Shown: positions 6,912 through 42,992 of the stretch, piece by piece
How the letters are laid out: each line of letters starts with the position of its first letter
Position numbering within the stretch: the first letter of the stretch is position 1
DNA from: Candidatus Enterousia sp.
Lineage (GTDB): Bacteria; Pseudomonadota; Alphaproteobacteria; Rs-D84
Direction of reading: 5' to 3'
DNA length: 60,268 nucleotides
Assembly (NCBI GenBank): GCA_045593685.1
Contig: JAZNXD010000021.1
Coordinates: forward strand, 1 to 60,268
The notes under the pieces: generated by a model
The model's input: the letters and a program-made list of their open reading frames with translations, nothing else
Told to the model about the DNA's origin: nothing
Database searches by the model: none
Translations under genes and position numbers: made by a program

Positions 6912-8426
6912 TTAAAATGCATACTTGACGCCCAAATGCAATCCAAAAGACTGCCACGTGGCACGTTTCAAGGAATCCGAAACCTGTTCAGTATAGGCAG
7001 GAACCGTTTCCAACAAAGGAATATAAAATATACTGCCGTCGTCACCGACAATTTCCTGCATCACATATTGACCGTTTTCATCAATTACGTATTGGCTGTA
7101 TTCTGCGACATACAATTCACCGCCAATATTGCCAACATGGAACAAGTTCGTATCAACCTTTAACGACAATTTTACACGATCGGATAATTTGTAATTGTAT
7201 TCCAATTCCGCCGCGTATGAATAGGCACCATTGCTGCCTTCGTCCAGGAAACTGGGGTTCTGTTGCCAATCGGTGCGATTGGGCCAAATACCTTCTGAGG
7301 AATATTTAGGCAGTCCAAATTGAAAATACATACGCAGATTATCCTTTAACGTCATCTGCTTTTCAATTTCAAGTCCGACATAAAATCCAGACCAGGTTGT
7401 GTTATAGATATGCGTTGTACCTTCGACAATAACGGGACCATCACCACCAATTATAACACATTCGCCCGCAGATACACCCCATGGAACAGTACCCATTGAA
7501 ATTTCATAATCGCCGGTATATAACGTATCCCCCAGCGCACCAAAACCATCGTAATAACCCGAAACCGAGTTTGTTACAACCTTGATATCTTCGGGCGACA
7601 TACAAACCTGGTAAAAATTGTCCGGCACAGCAACGCCAACGGGTGCAGAATAATAATTACCCAAATCATCACCGTAGACATATTCGCCCTTGTCCGTCAT
7701 CAGCGGCAGGTAAACGCCAGGATTCGGATAGTAATGATTGGACATTTCCAGGTTGTGTTTAAATATTTCATAACCAAACGATGGCGACAACTTCCACCCG
7801 CCAATATCCCAGACATGATGCGCGGATATCCCAAAACGAAAATAATTACTGCGCCCCGTTTGATCCCCCATAGAAATTGTAAAGATTCCATAGCCCTGGT
7901 CCGCTTCGTCAAACGGTTTCAGGTCATAGTCCATGGACAGACCGCCATGCGACATATCACCGTACGCATATTCACCAAACACAGATAAATCAAAGTCGCG
8001 CAAACTAAAATTATGACGGGCACCAACACGGATTTCGTTCCAAATCATATCGTCCCATTCCAAAATGGAATTTACACCCGTTTCAAATTCAAAATCCGCA
8101 AAACGACGTGAATATCCCGCGTAAATCGATGTGGCCGGTTCGGATTCGGCGGGCAACGCAATACCATTTGGTGTCATGGTGCCCATTGTTGTCGGAACCG
8201 TTGGACGCGGAACCTGGTACGAATATGTTTGGGAATTTAAAACCTGTTTTGATCCAGATTGGCCAACATATTTTGTGTATCCACGCGCCGCATAGCGATT
8301 ATAGGCCGCCTGGTTCGCGGTGGGCGTGGCCTGACTTTGATAATACGCAGGCACCCCTTCGTTTGCGGCAAACACCGCCAAGGGCGCAAAAAGAGCCGAT
8401 AAAAATGAAATAGTCCTGACCTTCAT
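6912..8426 (-). CDS. Outer-membrane beta-barrel protein of unassigned family
   Basis: Signal peptide MKVRTISFLSALFAPLAVFA. Alternating aromatic/Gly-rich strands. C-terminal HLGVKYAF ends in the OMP signature Phe. Confidence 0.65.
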   Translation of the reverse strand: MKVRTISFLSALFAPLAVFAANEGVPAYYQSQATPTANQAAYNRYAARGYTKYVGQSGSKQVLNSQTYSYQVPRPTVPTTMGTMTPNGIALPAESEPATSIYAGYSRRFADFEFETGVNSILEWDDMIWNEIRVGARHNFSLRDFDLSVFGEYAYGDMSHGGLSMDYDLKPFDEADQGYGIFTISMGDQTGRSNYFRFGISAHHVWDIGGWKLSPSFGYEIFKHNLEMSNHYYPNPGVYLPLMTDKGEYVYGDDLGNYYSAPVGVAVPDNFYQVCMSPEDIKVVTNSVSGYYDGFGALGDTLYTGDYEISMGTVPWGVSAGECVIIGGDGPVIVEGTTHIYNTTWSGFYVGLEIEKQMTLKDNLRMYFQFGLPKYSSEGIWPNRTDWQQNPSFLDEGSNGAYSYAAELEYNYKLSDRVKLSLKVDTNLFHVGNIGGELYVAEYSQYVIDENGQYVMQEIVGDDGSIFYIPLLETVPAYTEQVSDSLKRATWQSFGLHLGVKYAF

Positions 8427-29367: not shown

Positions 29368-29533
29368 GAATAGACCGTAACCACACCCGTCGGGTACACC
29401 ACAGTCTGCGACAGGATAGCACACCGACATAAAAAATCAAGTGGAAATATTATAATGTTTTTTCTTTTTTCACACAAGAACATTTTTATGCACGTAAAAC
29501 TTTTTATTGTTCAGACACAGGTTAAATTTTTCC

Positions 29534-29563
29534 TTGCATACGGGGTATTTTTTTGTCTACAAT
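29534..29563 (+). promoter_or_regulatory. Putative sigma70 promoter of the virB8-like operon (TTGCAT-18 nt-TACAAT)
   Basis: TTGCAT at 29534-29539 and TACAAT at 29558-29563, followed by SD GAGAGG and GTG 29589. Confidence 0.35.
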
Positions 29564-30287
29564 CAACATAATTAAGAGAGAGGAAATTGTGCAAAACCGC
29601 GTAGAACCGCCTGTTTTATTATCCAGATTAATGACGTTCGTGTTGGCGGGCGCACTGGTTGCGTTGGGGGCGTTGGGGGTAACATTGTATAAAATGTTCC
29701 CGTTGAATCGTCCGCAGGTATTCTTTTTAACAACCGAAGTGCGTGACGATTTAAACGTAAAATTGGTTGAACTGCCGCCGGAAAGCACCTATCTAGACAC
29801 ATACAAGACAGCATTTGTACGCGAATATATACGACACAGAAACGAAGTGTTTACAAATCCGACGGTTATGCAAAAAAAATGGAACGCCCAGGATGGTATC
29901 GTTCGCATAACATCCACAGACGATGTTTATGCCAATCTGATTGGGACCAGTATGTTCCGTGCGATTATGAGCGGTATGCCCGGCTTTGATTTCCATTGTC
30001 CGGTTAATTTTGACGGGGCGCCCATGCGGATGACAGATACCGCCACGCGTGAAGTTTACTATTTAACAAAAATCAGATACTTTTGTACGGACAATAATAC
30101 TGGACAGACAACACCAAAAGATTATACAATCAAAATGAAAATTGACGACGAGGCAAGCAAACCGCTAAGATGGGTTGACAGAATTGAAAACCCGCTGGGG
30201 TTGCGTGTAACAGAATACACGATTGTCGAAGGCGACGGCGACCCGTTGAACACCGGATTCCGTGGGGCGCCACAAAAGATAGAATAG
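29553..30287 (+). CDS. virB8: VirB8/TrbF-like type IV secretion inner-membrane protein
   Basis: Short cytoplasmic N-terminus, one TM helix (LMTFVLAGALVALGALGVTL), then FPLNRPQVFFLTTE and a FVREYIRHRNEV pattern typical of the VirB8 periplasmic NTF2-like domain. The likely true start is GTG 29589, downstream of the predicted -10. Confidence 0.65.
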   Translation: MSTINIIKREEIVQNRVEPPVLLSRLMTFVLAGALVALGALGVTLYKMFPLNRPQVFFLTTEVRDDLNVKLVELPPESTYLDTYKTAFVREYIRHRNEVFTNPTVMQKKWNAQDGIVRITSTDDVYANLIGTSMFRAIMSGMPGFDFHCPVNFDGAPMRMTDTATREVYYLTKIRYFCTDNNTGQTTPKDYTIKMKIDDEASKPLRWVDRIENPLGLRVTEYTIVEGDGDPLNTGFRGAPQKIE

Positions 30288-30298
30288 GAAGGATTGGC

Positions 30299-31831
30299 AT
30301 GAGTTTTGCAAAATTATTTAAGTTGAATATATCGGTGCTGTGTATGGCCGTTGTGTTGGGTGCGCCCGCGTATGCGGCGTCGTCTTATGGTATTCAAGAA
30401 GCATGGGATAATCCAACCGCAAATATGGCAATGGGCAGCACTAAACCAGGCTATGCCCAGTTGGCATGGTCGGCGGGCAGTGTTTTGCCAATCAAATTAC
30501 GTAATGGTATGGTTACGATGGTGACCCTGCCCAATGGTGAACAGATTGTGGATGCGGTTGTTGGCGACCAGGGACAATTTACGATTGATGCGACCCAGGG
30601 CGAACGCACAATGTTTATTTCCCCCGAACCCGACAATCAGGGTTCGGACACCAACATGATTGTTACCGGGAAATCGGGAAATAAATACATATTGTACCTG
30701 CGTGCCGAACCATCTAATTCCAGCGAAATTACATATTCCCAGGTTGATATTATTTTGGACGGCAATGCGACATTACCAATGGCGGGGGGCGCCACAACCA
30801 CATCGGGTGGCGCTAAATCCATATTCCAAAAGGCCGCACCACAGACATCGGTCGTGGGCGCGGATGGCGAAGACTATGGTTGGATAAAATCCATGAAAAT
30901 CGACCCGTCAGAATTCAGATTTGATTTGGACATTTTTGTTCCAAACCCGGACGATTACGTTATTGCGCCGGAACGTGTTTGGCGCGACAGAATCTTTACA
31001 TACATTGACTTTGGCGACAAGGTTATTTCCATGACCCAACGTCCGGTTGTATCTTTGTTGGTCGAAGGGGGCGAATCGCCCGTTGGATTCCGTACCGATG
31101 GTGAAGATGGACGACTGTTGATTGTCGAAGCCGTTGGCGATATGGTTCTGCGCAGCGGACAACGTATTGTATGTATCAAAAAACGTGAAAAGCCGTTCTT
31201 GATTGCGGATACAGCATCGGTAATGGCCCTGGCCGAGGCAAATGTTGCGCAAAGCATGCTGTCGGGGCAATCGTTGAACAATATTGCATATACAGACAGT
31301 ATGGCCGCAATGAGCATGGGTACAAACTATACCGGGACACCAATGTTTGTTGGAAATGGCCAAATGACCAATCCGGCAACGGGCGCGGGTTATTATATGC
31401 CGGCGGGCTTTACCGTTCCCCAGGCAATGCCACAATCATCCGGCAGTGTCGTTAACATGTTGCCACAACAGCGCAATACCGCGGGCGCGTATTTACCACA
31501 AACAAACATCCCATTGATTGCCAGCAATCAAATTGGTGTTGCGGTTGAATTGAAATCCGACACTTCGGTCAAGGCCCTGGAAGAATATTGGAATACACTG
31601 ATGGCAAAATTCAGTGGCGAAGATGGCCAGGGATTGTTGACCCCATACAAAAACATGGTGTTCTTTGCGGTTGATGAACAGGGGGTTGGCGACCTGGGGG
31701 CCGAGGCATCCAGTGCACGTCAATACCGTTTACGTGTCGGGCCATTGGCGGATATAGATACGGCACAAACACTGTGTGATAAATTGTTGCGTTTCAGCGG
31801 AACCAGTTGCAGCGTTGTTCGTATGCAATAA
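30299..31831 (+). CDS. virB9: VirB9/TrbG/CagX-like secretion protein with a C-terminal SPOR-like domain
   Basis: Signal peptide. N-domain VVGDQGQFTID..TNMIVTG..NKYILYL and C-domain PERVWRDRIFTYIDFGD..PVVSLL..RLLIVEAV match the VirB9 pattern. The last ~100 aa (..EEYWNTLMAKF...QYRLRVGPLADIDTAQTLCDKLLRFSGTSCSVV) look like SPOR. Confidence 0.7.
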   Translation: MSFAKLFKLNISVLCMAVVLGAPAYAASSYGIQEAWDNPTANMAMGSTKPGYAQLAWSAGSVLPIKLRNGMVTMVTLPNGEQIVDAVVGDQGQFTIDATQGERTMFISPEPDNQGSDTNMIVTGKSGNKYILYLRAEPSNSSEITYSQVDIILDGNATLPMAGGATTTSGGAKSIFQKAAPQTSVVGADGEDYGWIKSMKIDPSEFRFDLDIFVPNPDDYVIAPERVWRDRIFTYIDFGDKVISMTQRPVVSLLVEGGESPVGFRTDGEDGRLLIVEAVGDMVLRSGQRIVCIKKREKPFLIADTASVMALAEANVAQSMLSGQSLNNIAYTDSMAAMSMGTNYTGTPMFVGNGQMTNPATGAGYYMPAGFTVPQAMPQSSGSVVNMLPQQRNTAGAYLPQTNIPLIASNQIGVAVELKSDTSVKALEEYWNTLMAKFSGEDGQGLLTPYKNMVFFAVDEQGVGDLGAEASSARQYRLRVGPLADIDTAQTLCDKLLRFSGTSCSVVRMQ

Positions 31832-31849
31832 ACATGTGGGTATTGGGGG

Positions 31850-34225
31850 ATGAGTAAGTTTAAAGAAAAATTTTCGGAACTGCGTAACAATACGCCACGT
31901 CGTGTGCAGTGGTTGTTGATGGCGGTGGCCTTTGTTGTCGTTATTATACTGTTGACACTGTTATTTAGTGGTAATGACAAAAAGGATGCCGATATTGCGA
32001 CAACCAGTGCGGGGCCGGCATCGCTGGTAATCGAACCAGATTTGATTAACTGGGCCGATACACCGGTTGGCGAAGTTAAAGAACAGACGATTGATATAAC
32101 CGCAACCCAATCCGTTATCGTTACAAATGTTGAAAGACACGATGAAATTTCCGGTTATGACATCAAAGACACCTGTGTTGCAATCAAGGGAATCAGCCAA
32201 ACAAGTAAATGCCAAATATTTGCAACCTATGCCCCGGGGGCGGCAATGCCAACAAAACAGACAACGGTTACAATCACGTGGCACAAGGCCGACGAAGACG
32301 AAACCATGTCGCACCGCGATAAGATTGTCCTGACACTGGGGGCGGTGGTGCCGGTTGTTGAACAAAAACCGATTGCAATTCCAGAACCCGCGCCCGTTGT
32401 CGCAGAGATAGAAGAAATCGAGGAAATCGAAGAAACAGAAGAAGAACCCGAAACCGTGCGCGAAGAAATCGTACGTGAAATCGAGGCAATCGCCCCACCG
32501 GTCGTGGCACCAAGGAAGACCGTTATAGCGGAAGAAAAAATTGTTATTCCCGATGGATGTTCGGACTTTGCGTTTCCGGGATATAATAATGCGGGACGTC
32601 AAATTGGATGGATTAAACCCAGCGGTGGTGCGTACTATTTCCACACATTTTCCGACACGGATTGCAGTGAACCCGCAGGTACATATAATCCGGACAACGG
32701 CATCGTAACAGATGATGCGGGCAAGAAAATTGGAACCGATGCGGATCACATTGGATTTGCCACAATTACATCGGGCGAAATGCCGGCATTGTCAAATGTA
32801 CCGGCAATAAAACCGGTGTATCGCGCAACACAAAACGACGTACCGGGCAGCAGCAGTGGCATGGGCCGAGCAAATAGCGAAGGTGGCAGCATTGTAAAAC
32901 CCGCAAAACCATCCGAGATTGTATATGGAACATCTGATGAGAATGTTGTGACATCTAGCGCCCCATACGACAGAACATTTATACTGCGTCAGTTTAAACC
33001 AATTCCTGCAACAATCGTTTCTGATGTTCGCGCCGATATTCAAGCACTTGAGTTAGGGGTTCCGGTACGTGCAACCGTGGACAGAAATGTGTATTCCGAT
33101 AATGGACGAACAATTGTAATACCTACTGGGACATTAATGTTGGGCTATGTCACAGGCGAAGTTCCAGGGCCATATAAGACAATTGGACGGATGCAAATAA
33201 AGTGGTATCAGTTTATCCGCCCAGATGGAGTAGAATTTAACTTTCCAGAGGGGGACGACCCATACTCGGCAGATTCACAGGGACGTTTGGGTGTGCCAGG
33301 ACGTGGAAGTTCAGATTACCTGGAACAGTTCTTTATGCCAATGTTGACTGCATTTGTACCGGCGGCGGTAAACCTGATTAACCCGGTGGCGGATGCCTTT
33401 GTAAACCAAATCGACTTGGATAACAATACCGTTGTGCAAAGCGGAACCATGCGTTCATCGGAATTGGCCAAGAACGAGATTATTACCGCATGGAATCAGG
33501 TGGCCCAAAAATTAATGGTTGATATGATGGACAATACCGTACCACCATTTACGATTGCCGCCGGGACACGTATTACGGTGTATTCCCCCGTTGATTTACA
33601 GATAACTTGTGGTGCCCCAGGCGCAGAAAATACAGGCAAGAAGTGTGCTGTGGCGACTTTTAATAACGCACCTAGAAGAACAATTAAGAGTAGCGATATG
33701 GGCTTGTATCCAGCAAATGATAGCAGTTGGGTTGGACAATCACGCCAATTCCAGGCACAAGAACATTGCGAGAAGGATCAAAATGGTTTGTGGCGTGTTA
33801 AAAAGGAATGCTCGGGAATGGATTCTGGCAAATTAAATACTTGTGGTGGCTACTCATATACAACATTGAAATTATGGTGTGACTCATTGAACTATGAATC
33901 AAAAAAGGCGTTGCAATACGAAGAGTATCAGAAAGACCAATCGGCCCAATATCAACAAAAGATTGAGAATTTGGGTGGTGTTGGATCACAAGCGTTTAAT
34001 GAACAAATTTTGGGTGTACAATATAACGCCGATGGTACCGTTCAAAACCCATATGAATCCGCACCGGCACCGGCCGCGGAGGCCGCGGATGTGTTGTTAT
34101 GCCTGGACGGGACGGAACCGGATGCAAATGGATGCTGTACCGGGGAAATATATACCGATATGGGCGACCAGGGATTTAATTGTTGTCCGGAATCGGGGGG
34201 CGATTGTTTCCCGCCAATGTTCTGA
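31850..34225 (+). CDS. virB10: VirB10/TrbI-like secretion protein with extra N- and C-terminal modules
   Basis: N-terminal TM helix, an acidic/Pro-rich linker (EIEEIEEIEETEEEPE..APPVVAP), and a TrbI-like core (PATIVSDVRAD..VRATVDRNVYSDNGRTIVIPTGTLMLGY..IRPDGVEF..DSQGRLGVPG). A 12-Cys C-terminal extension of about 205 aa follows. Confidence 0.7.
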   Translation: MSKFKEKFSELRNNTPRRVQWLLMAVAFVVVIILLTLLFSGNDKKDADIATTSAGPASLVIEPDLINWADTPVGEVKEQTIDITATQSVIVTNVERHDEISGYDIKDTCVAIKGISQTSKCQIFATYAPGAAMPTKQTTVTITWHKADEDETMSHRDKIVLTLGAVVPVVEQKPIAIPEPAPVVAEIEEIEEIEETEEEPETVREEIVREIEAIAPPVVAPRKTVIAEEKIVIPDGCSDFAFPGYNNAGRQIGWIKPSGGAYYFHTFSDTDCSEPAGTYNPDNGIVTDDAGKKIGTDADHIGFATITSGEMPALSNVPAIKPVYRATQNDVPGSSSGMGRANSEGGSIVKPAKPSEIVYGTSDENVVTSSAPYDRTFILRQFKPIPATIVSDVRADIQALELGVPVRATVDRNVYSDNGRTIVIPTGTLMLGYVTGEVPGPYKTIGRMQIKWYQFIRPDGVEFNFPEGDDPYSADSQGRLGVPGRGSSDYLEQFFMPMLTAFVPAAVNLINPVADAFVNQIDLDNNTVVQSGTMRSSELAKNEIITAWNQVAQKLMVDMMDNTVPPFTIAAGTRITVYSPVDLQITCGAPGAENTGKKCAVATFNNAPRRTIKSSDMGLYPANDSSWVGQSRQFQAQEHCEKDQNGLWRVKKECSGMDSGKLNTCGGYSYTTLKLWCDSLNYESKKALQYEEYQKDQSAQYQQKIENLGGVGSQAFNEQILGVQYNADGTVQNPYESAPAPAAEAADVLLCLDGTEPDANGCCTGEIYTDMGDQGFNCCPESGGDCFPPMF

Positions 34226-34228
34226 AAA

Positions 34229-34256
34229 CAACCCGCCAAATGGCGGGTTTGTTTTT
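34229..34256 (+). terminator. Intrinsic terminator after the virB10-like gene
   Basis: ACCCGCC-AAAT-GGCGGGT stem followed by TTGTTTTT. Confidence 0.7.
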
Positions 34257-34269
34257 GCAATTAAATTTT

Positions 34270-34293
34270 GCGCGCAAAATTGCGCGCTTTTTC
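34270..34293 (+). terminator. Second hairpin/terminator
   Basis: GCGCGC-AAAATT-GCGCGC stem followed by TTTTT. Confidence 0.5.
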
Positions 34294-34482
34294 TTATTAC
34301 AGGTGTGATATGCAAATTAAGAAAAAAACAAGAAACGCATCGATTCGTTTTCGTTTTACAAATTCGCAAACCGAATCTGTTTTCTGATTCGTGTTTCAAC
34401 CGTCGGTTGTAACAATTCACAGGAATCTTTTCTTAGTCTATATATCATAAGTGAACATAAAAAACCAAAGGAGAAAGAAAGT

Positions 34483-34827
34483 ATGACACAAGCACAAACA
34501 ACCATGGTGGCCGAAAAATTCCAAAATGCGGAACAATTATGGTTTTGGTTTCTGTATTCAAAACAGGTACGCGAAAATAATTTTGGCCGCATGCGGGGAA
34601 CCCCCACACGCAGACCGTGCGAGGTACTGGATGTTGAAACACTGATTACAAAATTATATCTGTCGGGAAAATTAAATGATAATCAGTTGTGTGTCATGAA
34701 ACAATTTGGTGATCGCAGACGCGCGCCACACCAACATATTTGGGCCGAAAATCGTGCCGCACAAATGTGGGGTGCAGCAATGGCAATATTAGACAAGGCC
34801 GCACGTGAACGCGGATGGATTGAATAA
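34483..34827 (+). CDS. Hypothetical 114-aa protein
   Basis: Strong SD AAAGGAGA 7 nt before the ATG. Coding-like composition. No motif assigned (WFWF..RPCE..). Confidence 0.55.
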   Translation: MTQAQTTMVAEKFQNAEQLWFWFLYSKQVRENNFGRMRGTPTRRPCEVLDVETLITKLYLSGKLNDNQLCVMKQFGDRRRAPHQHIWAENRAAQMWGAAMAILDKAARERGWIE

Positions 34828-34858
34828 CCAATATAAACAAAGGATTTCATAACCTGGG

Positions 34859-34907
34859 TCCCGGTGTCAAGCACCGGGATGACAGAATTTTTTCAAAAAA
34901 ATTCTGT
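34859..34907 (+). terminator. Two consecutive hairpins after ORF 34483-34827
   Basis: TCCCGGTG-TCAAG-CACCGGGA (34859-34879), then the AT-rich palindrome ACAGAATTTTTT/AAAAAATTCTGT (34882-34907). Confidence 0.45.
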
Positions 34908-34961
34908 TTATATTTGCTGAACTAAACTTTTATTTATCAAATTAAAATCAAGGAAAATAAT

Positions 34962-35303
34962 ATGATTATTATTGGTTTTACACATAAAACATCCAAGGTC
35001 TTGCCACGAATTTTTTGTCGGCGTTTTCGACACGTGGCAATAATTGTCCCCAACAAAAAAAATATGGTTATGTTTCAATTTGTGCGATGCGGAAATATTG
35101 TGAAAATAAGACTTAACATGCGCGATATTAAATTACTGGGGCGGCACGGATGGCGTTTTGTCTGGGTGACGAGCACCCCACCCCATGATTTTGAAAAAAT
35201 GCGCGCATTGACGTGCGTACAAATGGCAAAAAATGCAATCGATTTGCGGGATTTTTATATACAAACACCGTGGGCATTATATAAAGCCTTGAATTATAAA
35301 TAA
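34962..35303 (+). CDS. Hypothetical 113-aa protein (weak His..Cys papain/NlpC-P60-like pattern)
   Basis: SD AAGGAAA before the ATG. FRHVAIIV ... LTCVQMAKNAI resembles the His-then-Cys order of YiiX/LRAT-like thiol hydrolases. This is pattern recall only. Confidence 0.45.
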   Translation: MIIIGFTHKTSKVLPRIFCRRFRHVAIIVPNKKNMVMFQFVRCGNIVKIRLNMRDIKLLGRHGWRFVWVTSTPPHDFEKMRALTCVQMAKNAIDLRDFYIQTPWALYKALNYK

Positions 35304-35304
35304 T

Positions 35305-35512
35305 TCTGGGGCATAATCAGTGTGGACTTTTGAGTAAAAGGTCTGGGTTTTCAAGACCCGTAAATCCACGGCATGCGATGTGTCGTTACGTAAACCTGAC
35401 CCACGATGTGGTCGGGTATCTGTGGTTATATAACAGGTTTATACCAAAAGCCACAGAGTCATTTGGATTTATGACCTTGAAAATGCCCGACCGTCAATTT
35501 TGACGGTTTTTT
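35305..35512 (+). ncRNA. Unclassified structured RNA candidate ending in an intrinsic terminator
   Basis: Closing helix GGGCAT (35309-14)/ATGCCC (35483-88) encloses four hairpins: GTGGA/TCCAC around GGTCT/AGACC; ACCTGAC..GTCGGGT; TCTGTGG/CCACAGA. Then CCGTC-loop-GACGG plus T6 (35491-35512). No ORF. Confidence 0.4.
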
Positions 35513-35536
35513 GTTGGCAAAATAAAGGACATAAAA

Positions 35537-36403
35537 ATGGAAAAAATTTCGGTCATTATACCAGTCTATAACACAGAAAAGTTTCTGAAACAGTGCCTGG
35601 GAAGTGTGATTAACCAAACATATAAAAATTTGGAAATACTGATTATCGATGATGGGTCACCAGACAAATCTGATGCGGTGTATAAACAATTTGCCCTGCA
35701 AGATAACAGAATCAAAATAATCAAACAGAAAAACGCCGGTATTTCCGCAGCAAGAAATACAGGATTAAAATTTGCATCCGGTCAATGGGTACATTTTATT
35801 GATTCTGATGATTATTTGGATATTGATTACTATGAAAAAATGATGAACGCCGTATACGATGTTAACCCCGACATTATCGCGGGCGGTGTCATTTCCCAAA
35901 ATTCTGAACTGTATAATATTCAGTATAAAACAACATGTGTGCTGTTTACAAAAACCGAAAAATTCCTAGTAACAAATGCACTGAAAAACTGTACTGTATG
36001 GCGGTATGTTTTTAAACGTGATTTTTTACAAAAAAATAATTTAAAATTTGCCGTTGGAAAAATTTTTGAAGATATTCTGTTTATACCAAATGCAATACTG
36101 ATGGCCAACTGTGTTGTAACCGTACCAAATGCAAATTACCACTATGTTTTTAATAAAGATTCATTGCTGAATAAAAAATATACTAAAAATCACCAGGCAC
36201 AATATGACTATGCAGAATCTTATTTGAATAGTTTTATAAAACAACACAATTTAGAAGATATAATTAACAGAAGTAAAAATACAGAGGTAACAACATATAA
36301 ACTAATCGCGTTTAAAATTTTTAGAAAAATTCTTTTTAAAGATACCAACGAAGTAAAGTATTATTTACTGGGGGTACGGATTTTAAAAACATATAAAAAA
36401 TAA
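35537..36403 (+). CDS. Family 2 glycosyltransferase
   Basis: ISVIIPVYN...IIDDGSPD...DSDD (GT-A DXD) motifs. Visibly more AT-rich than its neighbours. Confidence 0.85.
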   Translation: MEKISVIIPVYNTEKFLKQCLGSVINQTYKNLEILIIDDGSPDKSDAVYKQFALQDNRIKIIKQKNAGISAARNTGLKFASGQWVHFIDSDDYLDIDYYEKMMNAVYDVNPDIIAGGVISQNSELYNIQYKTTCVLFTKTEKFLVTNALKNCTVWRYVFKRDFLQKNNLKFAVGKIFEDILFIPNAILMANCVVTVPNANYHYVFNKDSLLNKKYTKNHQAQYDYAESYLNSFIKQHNLEDIINRSKNTEVTTYKLIAFKIFRKILFKDTNEVKYYLLGVRILKTYKK

Positions 36404-41801: not shown

Positions 41802-42992
41802 CTAATGAAAAACGTAACTGTCAATACCGTTTGCAGCGGCGGCAGATTTTAATTTTTGCGCATCGGATTCCGTTAACCCGTAAACACGAACACGATACAG
41901 GCCCGCGCCTGTGGGTTCAACAACCGCGTTGACCCCCAGCGCATTTTTCACATTTGCAACCTGGGTGTTGGCCGATGTGGTGGATGAAAAAGCACCGAAC
42001 TGAACACCCGTGCCCCCACGTGTCGATGAGGCAACGGCGCCGCCGGTATATTTTGGCATAGCGTTTGTTGTCGCCGTATTATAGGCGGACGCAAATGTTG
42101 ACGGCGCATGGGTGGCAACAGGTTGTGGCGCAGATGGCACAGGCGCGGATTCTGTTGCAATAGGTGGCACGTATGTATTTTTTGATACAGGTTGGGTATT
42201 ATTGGCCAACATGGAAAAACCACGGTTCAGCATTTGGGCCGCGACATTGGCACGCACGTCTTTGTTTTCCGCCCCCAGCACCACCGACATCAAATGCCTG
42301 TCGCCGCGATGCGCCGTGGCAACCAATGAATATTTTGATTTTTTTGTATACCCGGTCTTCATCCCATCGCAGCCATTAAAAGACGACAGCAAACGATTGC
42401 CATTGGTATACGTTTTACCGTTGTACGTCCAGGATTTAATACCAAAAAAATGCCAATACTGGGGGAAATGTTTATAAACCGCCATAGACAGCAAAGCAAT
42501 ATCACGCGCAGTCGACAGATGATCGTCATTGGGCAGGCCCGATGAATTTTCAAAATTTGTATTCGTAAGCCCTATTTCGCGCGCGACACGTGTCATTAAA
42601 TCGGCAAATGATTCTTCCTGGCCGCCCTTTAAATTTTCGGCCAACACGCGCGCAACGTCATTTGCACTGTATACGGCAAGGGCCTTAATCGCATCTTCGA
42701 CCCGGATTTTTGAACCGGCCGCCAACCCCAACTTTACAGGTTCGGCATTTGCCGCAGACTGTGACACAATCAAATAATCATCCAACGATAGGCGACCATG
42801 TTCCAACGCATCAAAAGTTAAATAAAGTGTCATTATTTTCGTCAAACTGGCCGGGTAATTGGGGGCTGTGGCGTTTTCTTGGTACAAGACACGACCGGTA
42901 TCCATATCCGCAACCAGGGCGGCACGATACTGCGCACCATAGGCCGGCAGACACAATATGAACGCAAAAAAAAGTGGGAACATTCTTCTCAT
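41802..42992 (-). CDS. D-alanyl-D-alanine carboxypeptidase (PBP5/6, S11) with a C-terminal SPOR domain
   Basis: SLTK (SxxK), SGL/SxN and KTGYT motifs. The last ~70 aa read VQFGAFSS..GLYRVRVYGL..A..L (SPOR-like). Confidence 0.85.
   Translation of the reverse strand: MRRMFPLFFAFILCLPAYGAQYRAALVADMDTGRVLYQENATAPNYPASLTKIMTLYLTFDALEHGRLSLDDYLIVSQSAANAEPVKLGLAAGSKIRVEDAIKALAVYSANDVARVLAENLKGGQEESFADLMTRVAREIGLTNTNFENSSGLPNDDHLSTARDIALLSMAVYKHFPQYWHFFGIKSWTYNGKTYTNGNRLLSSFNGCDGMKTGYTKKSKYSLVATAHRGDRHLMSVVLGAENKDVRANVAAQMLNRGFSMLANNTQPVSKNTYVPPIATESAPVPSAPQPVATHAPSTFASAYNTATTNAMPKYTGGAVASSTRGGTGVQFGAFSSTTSANTQVANVKNALGVNAVVEPTGAGLYRVRVYGLTESDAQKLKSAAAANGIDSYVFH

What the first reader, a model, noticed from the sequence alone, without database searches (positions are those of the whole stretch)
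29553..34225. Orphan VirB8-VirB9-VirB10-like secretion core with no ATPases, pilins or coupling protein nearby
Three tightly spaced genes (12-nt and 18-nt gaps) behind one predicted promoter and ahead of a double terminator carry VirB8, VirB9/TrbG and VirB10/TrbI sequence patterns. In canonical operons these genes are followed by virB11/virD4 or embedded in trb clusters. Nothing resembling VirB2-B7, B11 or D4 occurs anywhere in the 60 kb. Scattered rvh-type T4SS loci are known in Rickettsiales, but there B8-B9-B10 normally continue into B11-D4. All three proteins are divergent, and two carry extra domains (see the separate findings). The trio could therefore be a detached part of a dispersed T4SS. 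It could also be a repurposed envelope-spanning scaffold with a new function.
Basis: partly seen in the sequence, partly recalled or inferred. Interest (0 to 1): 0.75.

Follow-up and report, generated by a model that had tools for sequence, protein, structure and literature searches.

The report
Stand-alone VirB8-VirB9-VirB10 core in Enterousia
Three genes for the envelope-spanning core of a type IV secretion machine sit alone, with no motor genes nearby, at a fixed housekeeping position in the tiny genomes of an uncultured gut bacterial order, and whether a motor is encoded elsewhere remains untested.

Summary
Three adjacent + strand genes (29553-30287, 30299-31831, 31850-34225) pass Pfam thresholds for VirB8, CagX/VirB9 and TrbI/VirB10. 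A double terminator follows them. No other T4SS gene occurs in the 60 kb.

The window comes from Candidatus Enterousia (order Rs-D84, Alphaproteobacteria), gut bacteria with genomes of about 0.75-1.0 Mb. The trio is intact and bare in all 160 related loci fetched. In nearly all it lies between nusG-secE-tRNA-Trp and yidC. Synonymous sites are saturated, yet VirB9 residues 187-330 are almost invariant.

VirB9 carries a C-terminal SPOR-like domain. VirB10 carries an ASH/PapD-like Ig domain, a small Cys-bearing beta domain and a Cys-rich tail ending in an unannotated six-cysteine module.

The closest relatives, in other gut alphaproteobacterial MAGs, have VirB7-like lipoprotein, VirB8, VirB9-SPOR, a 2100-2400 aa VirB10 and VirB11. 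That order resembles the Rickettsiales rvh cluster. The trio is therefore a trimmed, vertically inherited derivative.

It is most likely the core of a dispersed T4SS whose VirB4 lies elsewhere (0.55). An ATPase-less repurposed scaffold is not excluded (about 0.27). I could not read whole genomes, so this stays open. It is a new variant of a known kind.

The parts
29424..29453 (+). Weak sigma-70-like promoter candidate (CCGACA-18-TATTAT) in the 185-nt gap between tRNA-Trp and virB8. Its function is not shown.
   Evidence: 9 of 12 positions match. The number of such sites in the region does not exceed the shuffle expectation.
29553..30287 (+). VirB8-like gene. It has a short cytoplasmic tail, one TM helix (about aa 25-46) and a periplasmic domain with the NPLG (NPxG) motif. 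The true start is probably GTG at 29589, because family conservation begins there and an AGAGAGGA RBS-like stretch precedes it.
   Evidence: Pfam VirB8 30.5 bits against a cut-off of 23.2. Family alignment and conservation. Sequence. A match was found in every locus that extends far enough upstream (about 75 of 80; my script assigned a full ORF in 68).
30299..31831 (+). VirB9/CagX-like gene fused to a C-terminal SPOR-like domain (510 aa, with a signal peptide).
   Evidence: Pfam CagX 79.5 bits. Foldseek matches to Xanthomonas VirB9 (E 1e-9), DotH, TrwF and CagX. Median 82% identity across 78 species loci, between NusG (89%) and YidC (67%).
30452..30757 (+). VirB9 N-terminal (I-layer type) beta-sandwich domain, aa 52-153.
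   Evidence: AF2 pLDDT about 75. TrwF NTD match with target-normalised TM 0.78 and rmsd 2.3. Profile hit to TrwF, E 4e-4.
30857..31288 (+). VirB9 C-terminal (O-layer type) domain plus the following helix, aa 187-330. It is almost invariant across species.
   Evidence: pN 0.015 against pS 0.67. Nearly every column in this stretch is invariant in the 26-species alignment. The AF2 model is not confident here.
31535..31828 (+). SPOR-like beta-alpha-beta-beta-alpha-beta domain, aa 413-510. It is the putative peptidoglycan anchor.
   Evidence: Pfam SPOR 18 bits, below the cut-off of 21. Some homologues carry a precomputed PF05036 hit. Foldseek match to the RlpA SPOR domain 6i09, TM 0.73, E 2e-3, and to DedD.
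31850..34225 (+). VirB10/TrbI-like gene with three added regions (791 aa). It has an N-terminal cytoplasmic tail and a TM helix at about aa 21-40.
   Evidence: Pfam TrbI 64 bits. PDB sequence hits: CagY 1e-5, ComB10 3e-4, Xanthomonas VirB10 0.02, TrwE 0.08. More than 900 homologues, the top 120 almost all full length.
32024..32347 (+). Periplasmic Ig-like ASH/PapD/MSP-type domain, aa 59-166. It has two Cys (C109, C121) that are invariant or nearly so.
   Evidence: AF2 pLDDT about 85. Foldseek matches to CEP192 and HYDIN ASH/PapD-like domains, E 1e-5 to 1e-4. The equivalent N-terminal domain occurs in the giant VirB10 P0300.
32558..32749 (+). Small beta-rich domain, aa 237-300 (CSDFAFPGY...GWIKPSGGAYYFH...C...NPDNGI...GKKIG). 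It is conserved throughout the wider family. A relationship to beta-flower repeats is only suggested.
   Evidence: AF2 pLDDT about 78. Found by domain profile in all family members, with only one marginal hit to a giant VirB10 repeat. BLASTP alignments to the P0300 repeats are not significant (E 0.4-0.9).
32966..33604 (+). VirB10 beta-barrel domain, aa 373-585. It includes an antenna-like helix-loop-helix (aa 490-561, nt 33317-33532) that is nearly invariant.
   Evidence: Pfam TrbI aa 385-579. Predicted helices 490-524 and 536-561 (low pLDDT). Invariant columns. pN 0.116.
33605..34222 (+). Cys-rich C-terminal extension, aa 586-791, with 10 conserved Cys. It ends in a six-Cys module of about 45 aa (aa 748-791, nt 34091-34222).
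   Evidence: Alignments. No Pfam family. The terminal module recurs in tandem in small secreted proteins. The tail is present only in the Rs-D84-like branch of the family.
34230..34297 (+). Two consecutive intrinsic-terminator-like hairpins with T runs. They close the three-gene unit.
34483..35303 (+). Two small conserved neighbour genes, orfX (34483-34827) and orfY (34962-35303), of unknown function. They probably form separate transcription units, and whether they belong to the system is uncertain.
   Evidence: orfX is found in 76 and orfY in 72 of the 80 species loci. They are separated from B10 or absent in divergent lineages. No Pfam or NCBIfam hit.

Best explanation
The trio encodes the envelope-spanning core of a chromosomal type IV secretion-type machine inherited from an rvh-like (Rickettsiales-type) ancestor.

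Proposed roles of the three proteins:
- VirB8 forms the inner-membrane-anchored periplasmic ring.
- VirB9 and VirB10 form the outer-membrane core complex. The two nearly invariant VirB10 antenna helices would line the outer-membrane pore. The VirB10 N-terminal TM helix and tail would reach the inner membrane.

Lineage-specific additions adapt this core:
- The SPOR domain on VirB9 pins the ring to peptidoglycan.
- The ASH Ig domain and the linker of VirB10 span the periplasm.
- The Cys-rich tail is a disulfide-bonded decoration. It may replace the lost VirB7 lipoprotein contact or bind a partner protein that carries the same module.

The energising and inner-membrane parts (VirB4, VirB3 and VirB6, with or without VirB11 or VirD4) are inferred to lie at other loci of the roughly 0.9-Mb genome, as in Rickettsiales. 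The machine would serve the partner-dependent lifestyle of Enterousia, through contact-dependent transfer or acquisition of macromolecules.

What is shown: homology, domain architecture, isolation at the locus, vertical inheritance, strong purifying selection and descent from a B7-B8-B9-B10-B11 type cluster.

What is inferred: ring assembly, the pore, the peptidoglycan anchoring, the existence of distal ATPase genes, and the substrate and its direction of travel.
For: - Pfam VirB8, CagX and TrbI all pass their gathering cut-offs. VirB8 has the NPLG motif.
- The VirB9 model matches VirB9, DotH, TrwF and CagX folds. The VirB10 model also matches TrwE, E 2e-3.
- The genes are intact in 80 species-representative loci and 80 metagenome loci.
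- pS is saturated at about 0.7. pN is 0.11 for VirB9, 0.015 for its C-terminal domain and 0.116 for the VirB10 barrel and antenna.
- The closest non-Enterousia relatives are clusters of VirB7-like lipoprotein, VirB8 (sometimes two copies), VirB9 with a SPOR-like end, a giant VirB10 and VirB11. TIGR02788 scores E 3e-42 on the VirB11. These clusters are also embedded among housekeeping genes with no VirB4 within 10 kb. Dispersal of T4SS genes is therefore already the rule in this branch, and VirB11 has no known role outside such machines.
- The cytoplasmic juxtamembrane stretch of VirB8 (RVEPPxLLSR) and the N-terminal tail of VirB10 are conserved. In the R388 structure, as I recall it, these parts contact VirB4/VirB3.
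- The organism is described as metabolically dependent and lacking standard transporters (PMC12306168).
Against: - No VirB4, VirB11, VirD4, VirB6, VirB3, VirB2 or VirB7 was seen in 60 kb of window or in the 10-kb flanks of 160 related loci, including lineages with rearranged flanks.
- VirB11 directly follows VirB10 in the sister lineage but is missing here, and so is the VirB7-like lipoprotein.
- The genome paper on Enterousia mentions no secretion system. This is weak evidence.
- VirB9 is conserved at housekeeping level and the position among core genes is fixed. Both would also fit a constitutive structural role.
- AF2 confidence is low for the VirB9 C-terminal domain and the VirB10 barrel, so ring and pore geometry are not shown.
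Confidence: 0.55

Rival explanations
1. ATPase-less repurposed scaffold. Enterousia has lost all T4SS motors and inner-membrane channel parts. The VirB8/9/10 assembly survives as a constitutive, passive structure that links the inner membrane, peptidoglycan and outer membrane. It could act as an envelope tether, possibly placed at the septum or pole through SPOR. Alternatively it could be a large outer-membrane conduit for scavenging from partner cells.
For: - The trio is always bare. Relative to the sister cluster it has lost VirB11, the VirB7-like lipoprotein and the second VirB8.
- Conservation is at housekeeping level and the position among core genes is fixed.
- SPOR domains target denuded septal peptidoglycan (established knowledge), and the fold match supports SPOR here.
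- New Cys-rich modules were added to VirB10.
- The genome is extremely reduced and lacks standard transporters.
Against: - No T4SS core complex is known to function without VirB4.
- VirB8 and the conserved cytoplasmic tails would be hard to explain without inner-membrane or cytoplasmic partners.
- Gene dispersal is already the norm in the sister lineage, which still has VirB11. Absence at the locus therefore says little about absence from the genome.
- Genome-wide absence was not tested.
Confidence: 0.27
2. ComB-like DNA-uptake system. The trio is the ComB8-9-10 equivalent of a competence-type T4SS that needs only a VirB4-type ATPase, with no VirB11 or VirD4. It would import environmental DNA into the periplasm, here perhaps mainly as a nucleotide source. 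This reading overlaps the best explanation: it also needs VirB4 elsewhere, and differs only in direction of transport and in B11/D4 being lost.
For: - The locus ends with B8-B9-B10 and has no B11 or D4, as the H. pylori comB6-10 operon does (review PMC12857230).
- PDB sequence hits for VirB10 are best to H. pylori CagY and ComB10.
- NCBIfam ComB10 scores E 6e-14, nearly equal to VirB10 at 1e-15.
- One JGI homologue is auto-named ComB9.
- The paper states explicitly that amino-acid, nucleotide and fatty-acid synthesis are missing only for the unrelated lineage UBA9783. It describes Rs-D84 as having still more limited metabolic potential and lacking standard transporters.
Against: - There is no ComB6 or ComB7 equivalent upstream. 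tRNA-Trp lies 185 nt before virB8.
- ComB10 scores 51.9 bits against a cut-off of 300.
- The nearest relatives are alphaproteobacterial clusters with VirB11, not ComB systems.
- ComB4, ComEC and ComH could not be searched for.
Confidence: 0.12
3. Decaying remnant of a lost conjugative element or T4SS, with no current function.
For: Other T4SS genes are absent from the neighbourhood.
Against: - The ORFs are intact with constant lengths in every locus that covers them.
- pN/pS is 0.16-0.41 with saturated pS, and the VirB9 C-terminal domain is nearly invariant.
- There are no integrase, relaxase or repeat features, and the flanks are core genes.
- About 4.7 kb has been retained in genomes under 1 Mb.
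Confidence: 0.01

Closest known systems
Rickettsiales vir homolog (rvh) T4SS: scattered chromosomal P-type T4SS with the cluster rvhB8-B7-B8-B9-B10-B11-D4
   Same: - It is a chromosomal, vertically inherited T4SS in reduced alphaproteobacterial genomes, with its genes split over several loci.
- The B8-B9-B10 order is the same.
- The sister lineage of the Enterousia trio shows B8, B7-like lipoprotein, B8, B9, B10 and B11, which is essentially the rvh order. The rvh layout itself is from my own knowledge.
   Different: - The Enterousia locus has a single B8, no B7-like gene and no B11 or D4 after B10.
- VirB9 carries a SPOR domain, and VirB10 carries ASH and Cys-rich additions.
- The sequences are far from any equivalog model.
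- Whether B3, B4 and B6 exist elsewhere was not tested.
Helicobacter pylori ComB competence T4SS (comB2-4 plus comB6-10)
   Same: It is a split T4SS whose second operon ends in B8-B9-B10 and which lacks VirB11, VirD4 and VirB5 (PMC12857230). CagY and ComB10 are the best PDB sequence matches to the VirB10 barrel.
   Different: There are no ComB6 or ComB7 genes upstream. Similarity is weak (ComB10 51.9 bits against a cut-off of 300). The nearest true relatives carry VirB11.
Giant ASH plus beta-flower-repeat VirB10 clusters of other uncultured gut Alphaproteobacteria (P0300 family; only automatically annotated)
   Same: - VirB10 has the same N-terminal ASH domain, and the barrel is 32% identical (BLASTP 7e-27).
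- The VirB9 is 33-37% identical and ends in the same SPOR-like motif ...RLRIGP...C..L...SCSVVRxQ.
- The cluster is also embedded among housekeeping genes.
   Different: Their VirB10 is 2100-2400 aa with many Bflower_2/DUF3659 repeats and no Cys-rich tail. They keep a VirB7-like lipoprotein, often a second VirB8, and VirB11.
Expanded outer-membrane core complexes with peptidoglycan-binding or extra subunits (Legionella Dot/Icm DotH/DotG, H. pylori CagX/CagY)
   Same: Here too, VirB9 and VirB10 homologues carry large lineage-specific additions. The VirB9 model matches DotH and CagX folds, and the VirB10 barrel matches CagY by sequence.
   Different: Those systems are encoded with full sets of ATPases and many accessory genes. 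Here the additions are SPOR, ASH and a new Cys module, and no accessory gene is adjacent.

Membership tests
Type IV secretion system (complete functional machine) | VirB4-family ATPase, which is universal in T4SSs | not testable with these tools
   Absent from the 60-kb window and from the 10-kb flanks of 160 related loci. Whole genomes could not be read, and the collection scans and protein searches were exhausted.
Type IV secretion system (complete functional machine) | Outer-membrane core components VirB9 and VirB10 | tested here: met
   Pfam CagX 79.5 bits and TrbI 64 bits, both above cut-off. Fold matches to VirB9, DotH, TrwF and CagX. CagY and ComB10 sequence hits.
Type IV secretion system (complete functional machine) | VirB7-type lipoprotein partner of VirB9 | tested here: not met
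   The sister cluster has a 58-aa lipoprotein (LAAC lipobox), but tblastn finds none in the Enterousia loci and there is no room for one at the locus. A copy elsewhere in the genome was not tested.
Type IV secretion system (complete functional machine) | VirB11 and/or a VirD4 coupling protein | tested here: not met
   None in the window or the related loci. tblastn with the sister-lineage VirB11 gave no hits. This test covers the locus only, not the genome.
Pfam VirB8 (PF04335) | Score above the gathering cut-off, N-terminal TM helix and the NPxG motif | tested here: met
   30.5 bits against 23.2. The TM helix and a conserved NPLG are present. No NCBIfam VirB8 model hits, and there is no PDB sequence hit.
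NCBIfam equivalogs VirB9 (TIGR02781), VirB10 (NF038091) and ComB10 (NF038092) | Score at or above the curated equivalog cut-off | tested here: not met
   53.8 against 217.7, 57.9 against 220 and 51.9 against 300 bits. The proteins are family members but not equivalogs of the characterised proteins.
SPOR domain (PF05036) | Pfam score above cut-off, and the RNP-like beta-alpha-beta-beta-alpha-beta fold | tested here: inconclusive
   The window protein scores 18 bits, below the cut-off of 21. Some homologues have a recorded PF05036 hit. The predicted fold matches RlpA SPOR with TM 0.73, E 2e-3. Peptidoglycan binding was not tested.
rvh-type (Rickettsiales) T4SS | Cluster B8-B7-B8-B9-B10-B11-D4 with duplicated components and further loci holding B3-B4-B6 | tested here: not met
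   The Enterousia locus has only B8-B9-B10. The sister lineage meets the order as far as B11 but has no D4. The other loci cannot be tested.
ComB competence T4SS | comB6-comB7 upstream of comB8-10, and comB2-4 elsewhere | tested here: not met
   tRNA-Trp and secE lie upstream on the opposite strand, and there is no B6- or B7-like ORF. The comB2-4 equivalents cannot be tested.

The most novel reading that the evidence does not exclude
Enterousia and the wider Rs-D84 order have discarded every T4SS ATPase and inner-membrane channel protein. They would keep only a VirB8-VirB9(SPOR)-VirB10(ASH/Cys) assembly as a constitutive, housekeeping envelope organelle. This would be the first T4SS core complex working without VirB4. 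It might be a peptidoglycan-anchored trans-envelope conduit or tether used to obtain metabolites from partner cells.
Probability: 0.27. Interest if true: 0.85.

Novelty: new variant of a known kind. Interest (0 to 1): 0.55.

Why it matters
Enterousia is a widespread, uncultured gut lineage found in ruminants, horses, chickens and humans. Its genomes are under 1 Mb and its way of life is unknown. It lacks standard transporters and is suspected to depend on partner cells (PMC12306168).

A T4SS-type core that is fixed in the core genome, and whose VirB9 is as conserved as NusG or YidC, is a strong candidate for the structure that mediates this dependence.

The locus also documents an evolutionary series. 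An rvh-like cluster with a giant VirB10 and VirB11 leads to a bare three-gene module. Along the way it shows previously unannotated fusions: VirB9-SPOR, VirB10-ASH and a new six-Cys module shared with small secreted proteins.

If the genomes prove to lack VirB4, this would be the first example of a T4SS core complex exapted to work without ATPases.

Tried and rejected
1. **Finding T4SS ATPases genome-wide.** This was not possible.
   - The three protein searches went to VirB10, VirB9 and the giant VirB10.
   - A generic VirB4 query would only have listed its own 120 closest relatives.

2. **Extending the window.** Looking up its own edge proteins and VirB10 found no exact match in the collection.

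3. **Literature.** No paper in the library links Enterousia or Rs-D84 to a secretion system.
   - The 2023 Enterousia paper is not held.
   - The mSphere paper has no supplements held.

4. **Large ORFs directly upstream of the trio in divergent lineages** (L154, 767 aa; L110, 972 aa). I suspected VirB4 or VirB6. They have no Pfam hit and read as a leucine-rich-repeat surface protein and a coiled-coil, low-complexity protein. Rejected.

5. **ORFs downstream of VirB10 in divergent lineages** (about 520-620 aa). I suspected VirD4. Most are DnaX or PBP1A; the one in L091 remains unidentified, with only a sub-threshold TFIIA hit. Rejected for the ones identified.

6. **orfX and orfY as system components.** They have no family hits and are not linked to the trio in divergent lineages. 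Left as uncertain.

7. **Beta-flower identity of the VirB10 aa 237-300 domain.** Support is only marginal. Not claimed.

8. **VirB9 as a lipoprotein replacing VirB7.** The conserved Cys15 context (for example ISVLC) does not fit the lipobox consensus. Not claimed.

9. **AF2 models.** The monomer models of the VirB9 C-terminal domain and the VirB10 barrel were low-confidence. No statement on ring symmetry is made.

Full report
**1. The observation**

The + strand carries three ORFs: 29553-30287 (244 aa), 30299-31831 (510 aa) and 31850-34225 (791 aa). They are separated by 11 and 18 nt.

Pfam places them in VirB8 (30.5 bits, cut-off 23.2), CagX/VirB9 (79.5 bits, cut-off 34.2) and TrbI/VirB10 (64 bits, cut-off 35). 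NCBIfam VirB9, VirB10 and ComB10 models match only far below their equivalog cut-offs. The genes are therefore true but divergent members of these families.

Two terminator-like hairpins with T runs follow at 34230-34249 and 34270-34287. The upstream promoter candidate at 29424-29453 is weak, and such sites are no more frequent than in shuffled sequence.

The rest of the window is ordinary chromosome:
- Upstream on the - strand lie tRNA-Trp, secE, nusG, rplKAJL and rpoBC.
- Downstream lie two small unknown genes, a GT2 glycosyltransferase, yidC, lspA, a Na/H exchanger, ksgA, recR, a DacA-type PBP with a SPOR domain, pyk, gyrA, ppdK and an AcrB/TolC pump.
- rpoB, rpoC, the four ribosomal-protein genes, nusG and yidC were identified by size, position and sequence rather than by a Pfam scan.
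- No ORF resembles VirB2-B7, VirB11 or VirD4.
- Seven small ORFs in the gaps were scanned. Three gave hits (SecE, GapR and an RNHCP-domain protein) and four gave none.

**2. Organism and distribution**

VirB10 has more than 900 homologues. The best 120 are 53-93% identical and almost all align over the full length. They come from uncultured gut MAGs labelled 'Alphaproteobacteria bacterium'.

In the species-representative genome collection, 247 stretches encode a relative. The titles name Candidatus Enterousia and unnamed Alphaproteobacteria from ruminant, human, chicken and horse gut. Some are labelled 'uncultured Rickettsiales'.

According to PMC12306168, Enterousia belongs to order Rs-D84. 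Its genomes are about 0.75-1.0 Mb. It lacks the TCA cycle, respiration, upper glycolysis and standard transporters. It is thought to depend on partner organisms. The paper does not mention any secretion system.

**3. Conservation and synteny**

In all 80 fetched species loci the order is rpoB...rplA-rplK-nusG (-), then B8-B9-B10-orfX-orfY (+), then yidC-lspA-Na/H exchanger (-). VirB9 and VirB10 are uninterrupted with near-constant lengths wherever the locus covers them. VirB8 is matched in every locus that reaches far enough upstream, although my ORF script assigned a start in only 68 of them.

Median identity to the window across these loci:

| Protein | Median identity |
|---|---|
| RplK | 96% |
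| RpoB | 93% |
| NusG | 89% |
| VirB9 | 82% |
| LspA | 70% |
| YidC | 67% |
| VirB10 | 57% |
| VirB8 | 55% |

Synonymous sites are saturated (pS 0.67-0.72), while pN stays low:
- 0.11 for VirB9 overall.
- 0.015 for VirB9 residues 187-330, which cover the C-terminal domain and the following helix. Nearly every column in this stretch is invariant in a 26-species alignment.
- 0.116 for the VirB10 barrel.

This is a vertically inherited core-genome block under strong protein-level selection. It is neither a mobile-element fragment nor a decaying remnant.

A metagenome scan seeded with distant family members returned 80 more loci. Nearly all show the same synteny. The divergent ones are termite-gut and low-GC lineages, with RpoB only 77-79% identical or VirB10 only 28-35% identical. 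They keep the bare B8-B9-B10 trio but have different flanks: dnaX or PBP1A downstream, and a leucine-rich-repeat or coiled-coil protein upstream. No ATPase gene is adjacent in any of them.

**4. Anatomy of the three proteins**

VirB8 has a conserved juxtamembrane stretch, one TM helix and the NPLG signature. Conservation begins at Val13, so the start is probably the GTG at 29589.

VirB9 has four parts:
- A signal peptide.
- An N-terminal sandwich that matches the TrwF N-terminal domain (TM 0.78). Full-length fold matches include Xanthomonas VirB9 (E 1e-9), DotH and CagX.
- The invariant C-terminal domain, for which AF2 was not confident.
- A beta-alpha-beta-beta-alpha-beta domain at residues 413-510. 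It matches the RlpA SPOR domain (TM 0.73, E 2e-3) and DedD. Pfam SPOR is just below its cut-off in the window protein and is on record for some homologues.

VirB10 has seven parts:
- A conserved N-terminal tail and a TM helix.
- An ASH/PapD-like Ig domain at residues 59-166 (pLDDT about 85).
- An acidic, proline-rich linker.
- A small Cys-bearing beta domain at residues 237-300.
- The TrbI barrel at residues 373-585. PDB sequence hits are CagY 1e-5, ComB10 3e-4, Xanthomonas VirB10 0.02 and TrwE 0.08.
- Within the barrel, two predicted long helices (490-524 and 536-561) with a connecting loop. This lies where the VirB10 antenna sits, and it is the most conserved part of the protein.
- A 200-aa tail with ten conserved Cys.

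The last 45 or so residues form a six-Cys module: C..DG..PD..GCC.GE.YTDMG..GFNCCP..GG.CFPP. The same module occurs in one to three copies in small signal-peptide proteins. It also occurs at the end of a 129-aa putative lipoprotein. It has no Pfam family.

**5. Origin**

A profile search of the 50%-clustered library found three groups:
- Full-length relatives.
- A wider family with the layout TM, ASH, Cys domain and TrbI.
- VirB10 proteins of 2100-2400 aa.

The giant proteins have the same N-terminal ASH domain, dozens of beta-flower/DUF3659 repeats and a C-terminal barrel 32% identical to the window protein (BLASTP 7e-27).

Their genomic context, in other gut alphaproteobacterial MAGs, is as follows:
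- Several unknown secreted proteins.
- VirB8.
- A 58-aa lipoprotein (…LALAACGS…, VirB7-like).
- A second VirB8.
- A VirB9 of 536-576 aa that ends in the same SPOR-like motif.
- The giant VirB10.
- VirB11 (TIGR02788, E 3e-42).
- Then housekeeping genes.

No VirB4 or VirD4 lies within 10 kb there either. As I recall the Rickettsiales rvh cluster, this is its order without D4.

The Enterousia trio is therefore a trimmed derivative. It has lost the second VirB8, the VirB7-like gene and VirB11 from the locus. Its VirB10 is shortened and has gained a new Cys-rich tail.

**6. Interpretation**

The most economical reading has the trio as the envelope-spanning core of a dispersed, rvh-derived T4SS-type machine (confidence 0.55). 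VirB8 forms the periplasmic ring. VirB9 and VirB10 form the outer-membrane complex. SPOR anchors the complex to peptidoglycan. VirB4, VirB3 and VirB6 would be encoded elsewhere.

Dispersal is already the rule in the sister lineage, which still keeps VirB11. The conserved cytoplasmic and TM parts of VirB8 and VirB10 suggest inner-membrane partners.

The direction of transport is open. A ComB-like uptake system would also end in B8-B9-B10 without B11 or D4 (PMC12857230). However, the upstream ComB6 and ComB7 equivalents are missing and the ComB similarity is weak (confidence about 0.12).

The more novel reading is an ATPase-less repurposed scaffold. Several observations fit it: the repeated loss of partners from the locus, the housekeeping-level conservation, the SPOR fusion and the new Cys modules. 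It cannot be excluded (about 0.27).

I could not read whole genomes, so the decisive test was not run. That test is a search for VirB4 in near-complete Enterousia genomes, such as the 935-kb single contig behind L083.

**7. Novelty**

NCBI and JGI pipelines already name these proteins 'TrbI/VirB10 family' and 'TrbG/VirB9 family'. I found no study of them.

The kind of system is known, namely T4SS core genes. The variant is new in four respects:
- A bare three-gene unit fixed in the core genome of a whole order.
- A VirB9-SPOR fusion.
- A VirB10 with an ASH domain and a new Cys module.
- No VirB7 or VirB11 at the locus.

Noticed in passing
window 34091-34222 (VirB10 aa 748-791); proteins P0301, P0339, P0334, P0368, P0371: The terminal six-Cys module of VirB10 (C..DG..PD..GCC.GE.YTDMG..GFNCCP..GG.CFPP) is an independent unit with no Pfam family. 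It occurs in 2-3 tandem copies in small signal-peptide proteins and once at the end of a 129-aa putative lipoprotein. This suggests a shared binding or pairing module.
   Followed up: partly
window 34483-34827 and 34962-35303: Two small genes of 114 and 113 aa follow the trio in most of the 80 species loci (76 and 72 of them; median identity 68% and 49%). They have no Pfam or NCBIfam hit. In divergent lineages they are separated from VirB10 or absent.
   Followed up: partly
L161-L165 (for example L162:6501-17881): Another group of gut alphaproteobacterial MAGs carries a VirB10 of 2100-2400 aa made of an ASH domain, dozens of beta-flower/DUF3659 repeats and a TrbI barrel. It sits in a cluster of VirB7-like lipoprotein, VirB8 (one or two copies), VirB9-SPOR, VirB10 and VirB11. 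Five to seven unknown secreted proteins precede it.
   Followed up: partly
window 35537-36403: The GT2 glycosyltransferase gene between orfY and yidC is present in only 2 of the 80 species loci, L005 and L006. This spot is therefore a variable insertion site in an otherwise fixed neighbourhood.
   Followed up: no
window 6912-8426 (- strand): A 504-aa protein gives a partial match to the Pom family (Protochlamydia outer membrane protein, E 1.5e-9). It is a possible porin of this reduced-genome bacterium.
   Followed up: no
window 41802-42992 (- strand): A DacA-type D-Ala-D-Ala carboxypeptidase carries a clear C-terminal SPOR domain (33 bits). This is a second SPOR-bearing envelope protein in the same window.
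   Followed up: no
window 35304-35536: A 233-nt intergenic stretch ends in a strong terminator-like hairpin (35489-35508) just before the GT2 gene. It has no ORF of note and no Rfam match, so it could be a small RNA or a leader.
   Followed up: partly
L161:25063-26642: Two adjacent genes with mTERF domains lie next to the sister-lineage T4SS cluster. As I recall, this family is mostly eukaryotic and organellar.
   Followed up: no
L091:12225-14675 and L145:12296-14753: In a divergent Rs-D84-like lineage, two unknown genes of about 576 and 238 aa are inserted between VirB10 and orfX on the same strand. Neither has a significant Pfam or NCBIfam match.
   Followed up: partly
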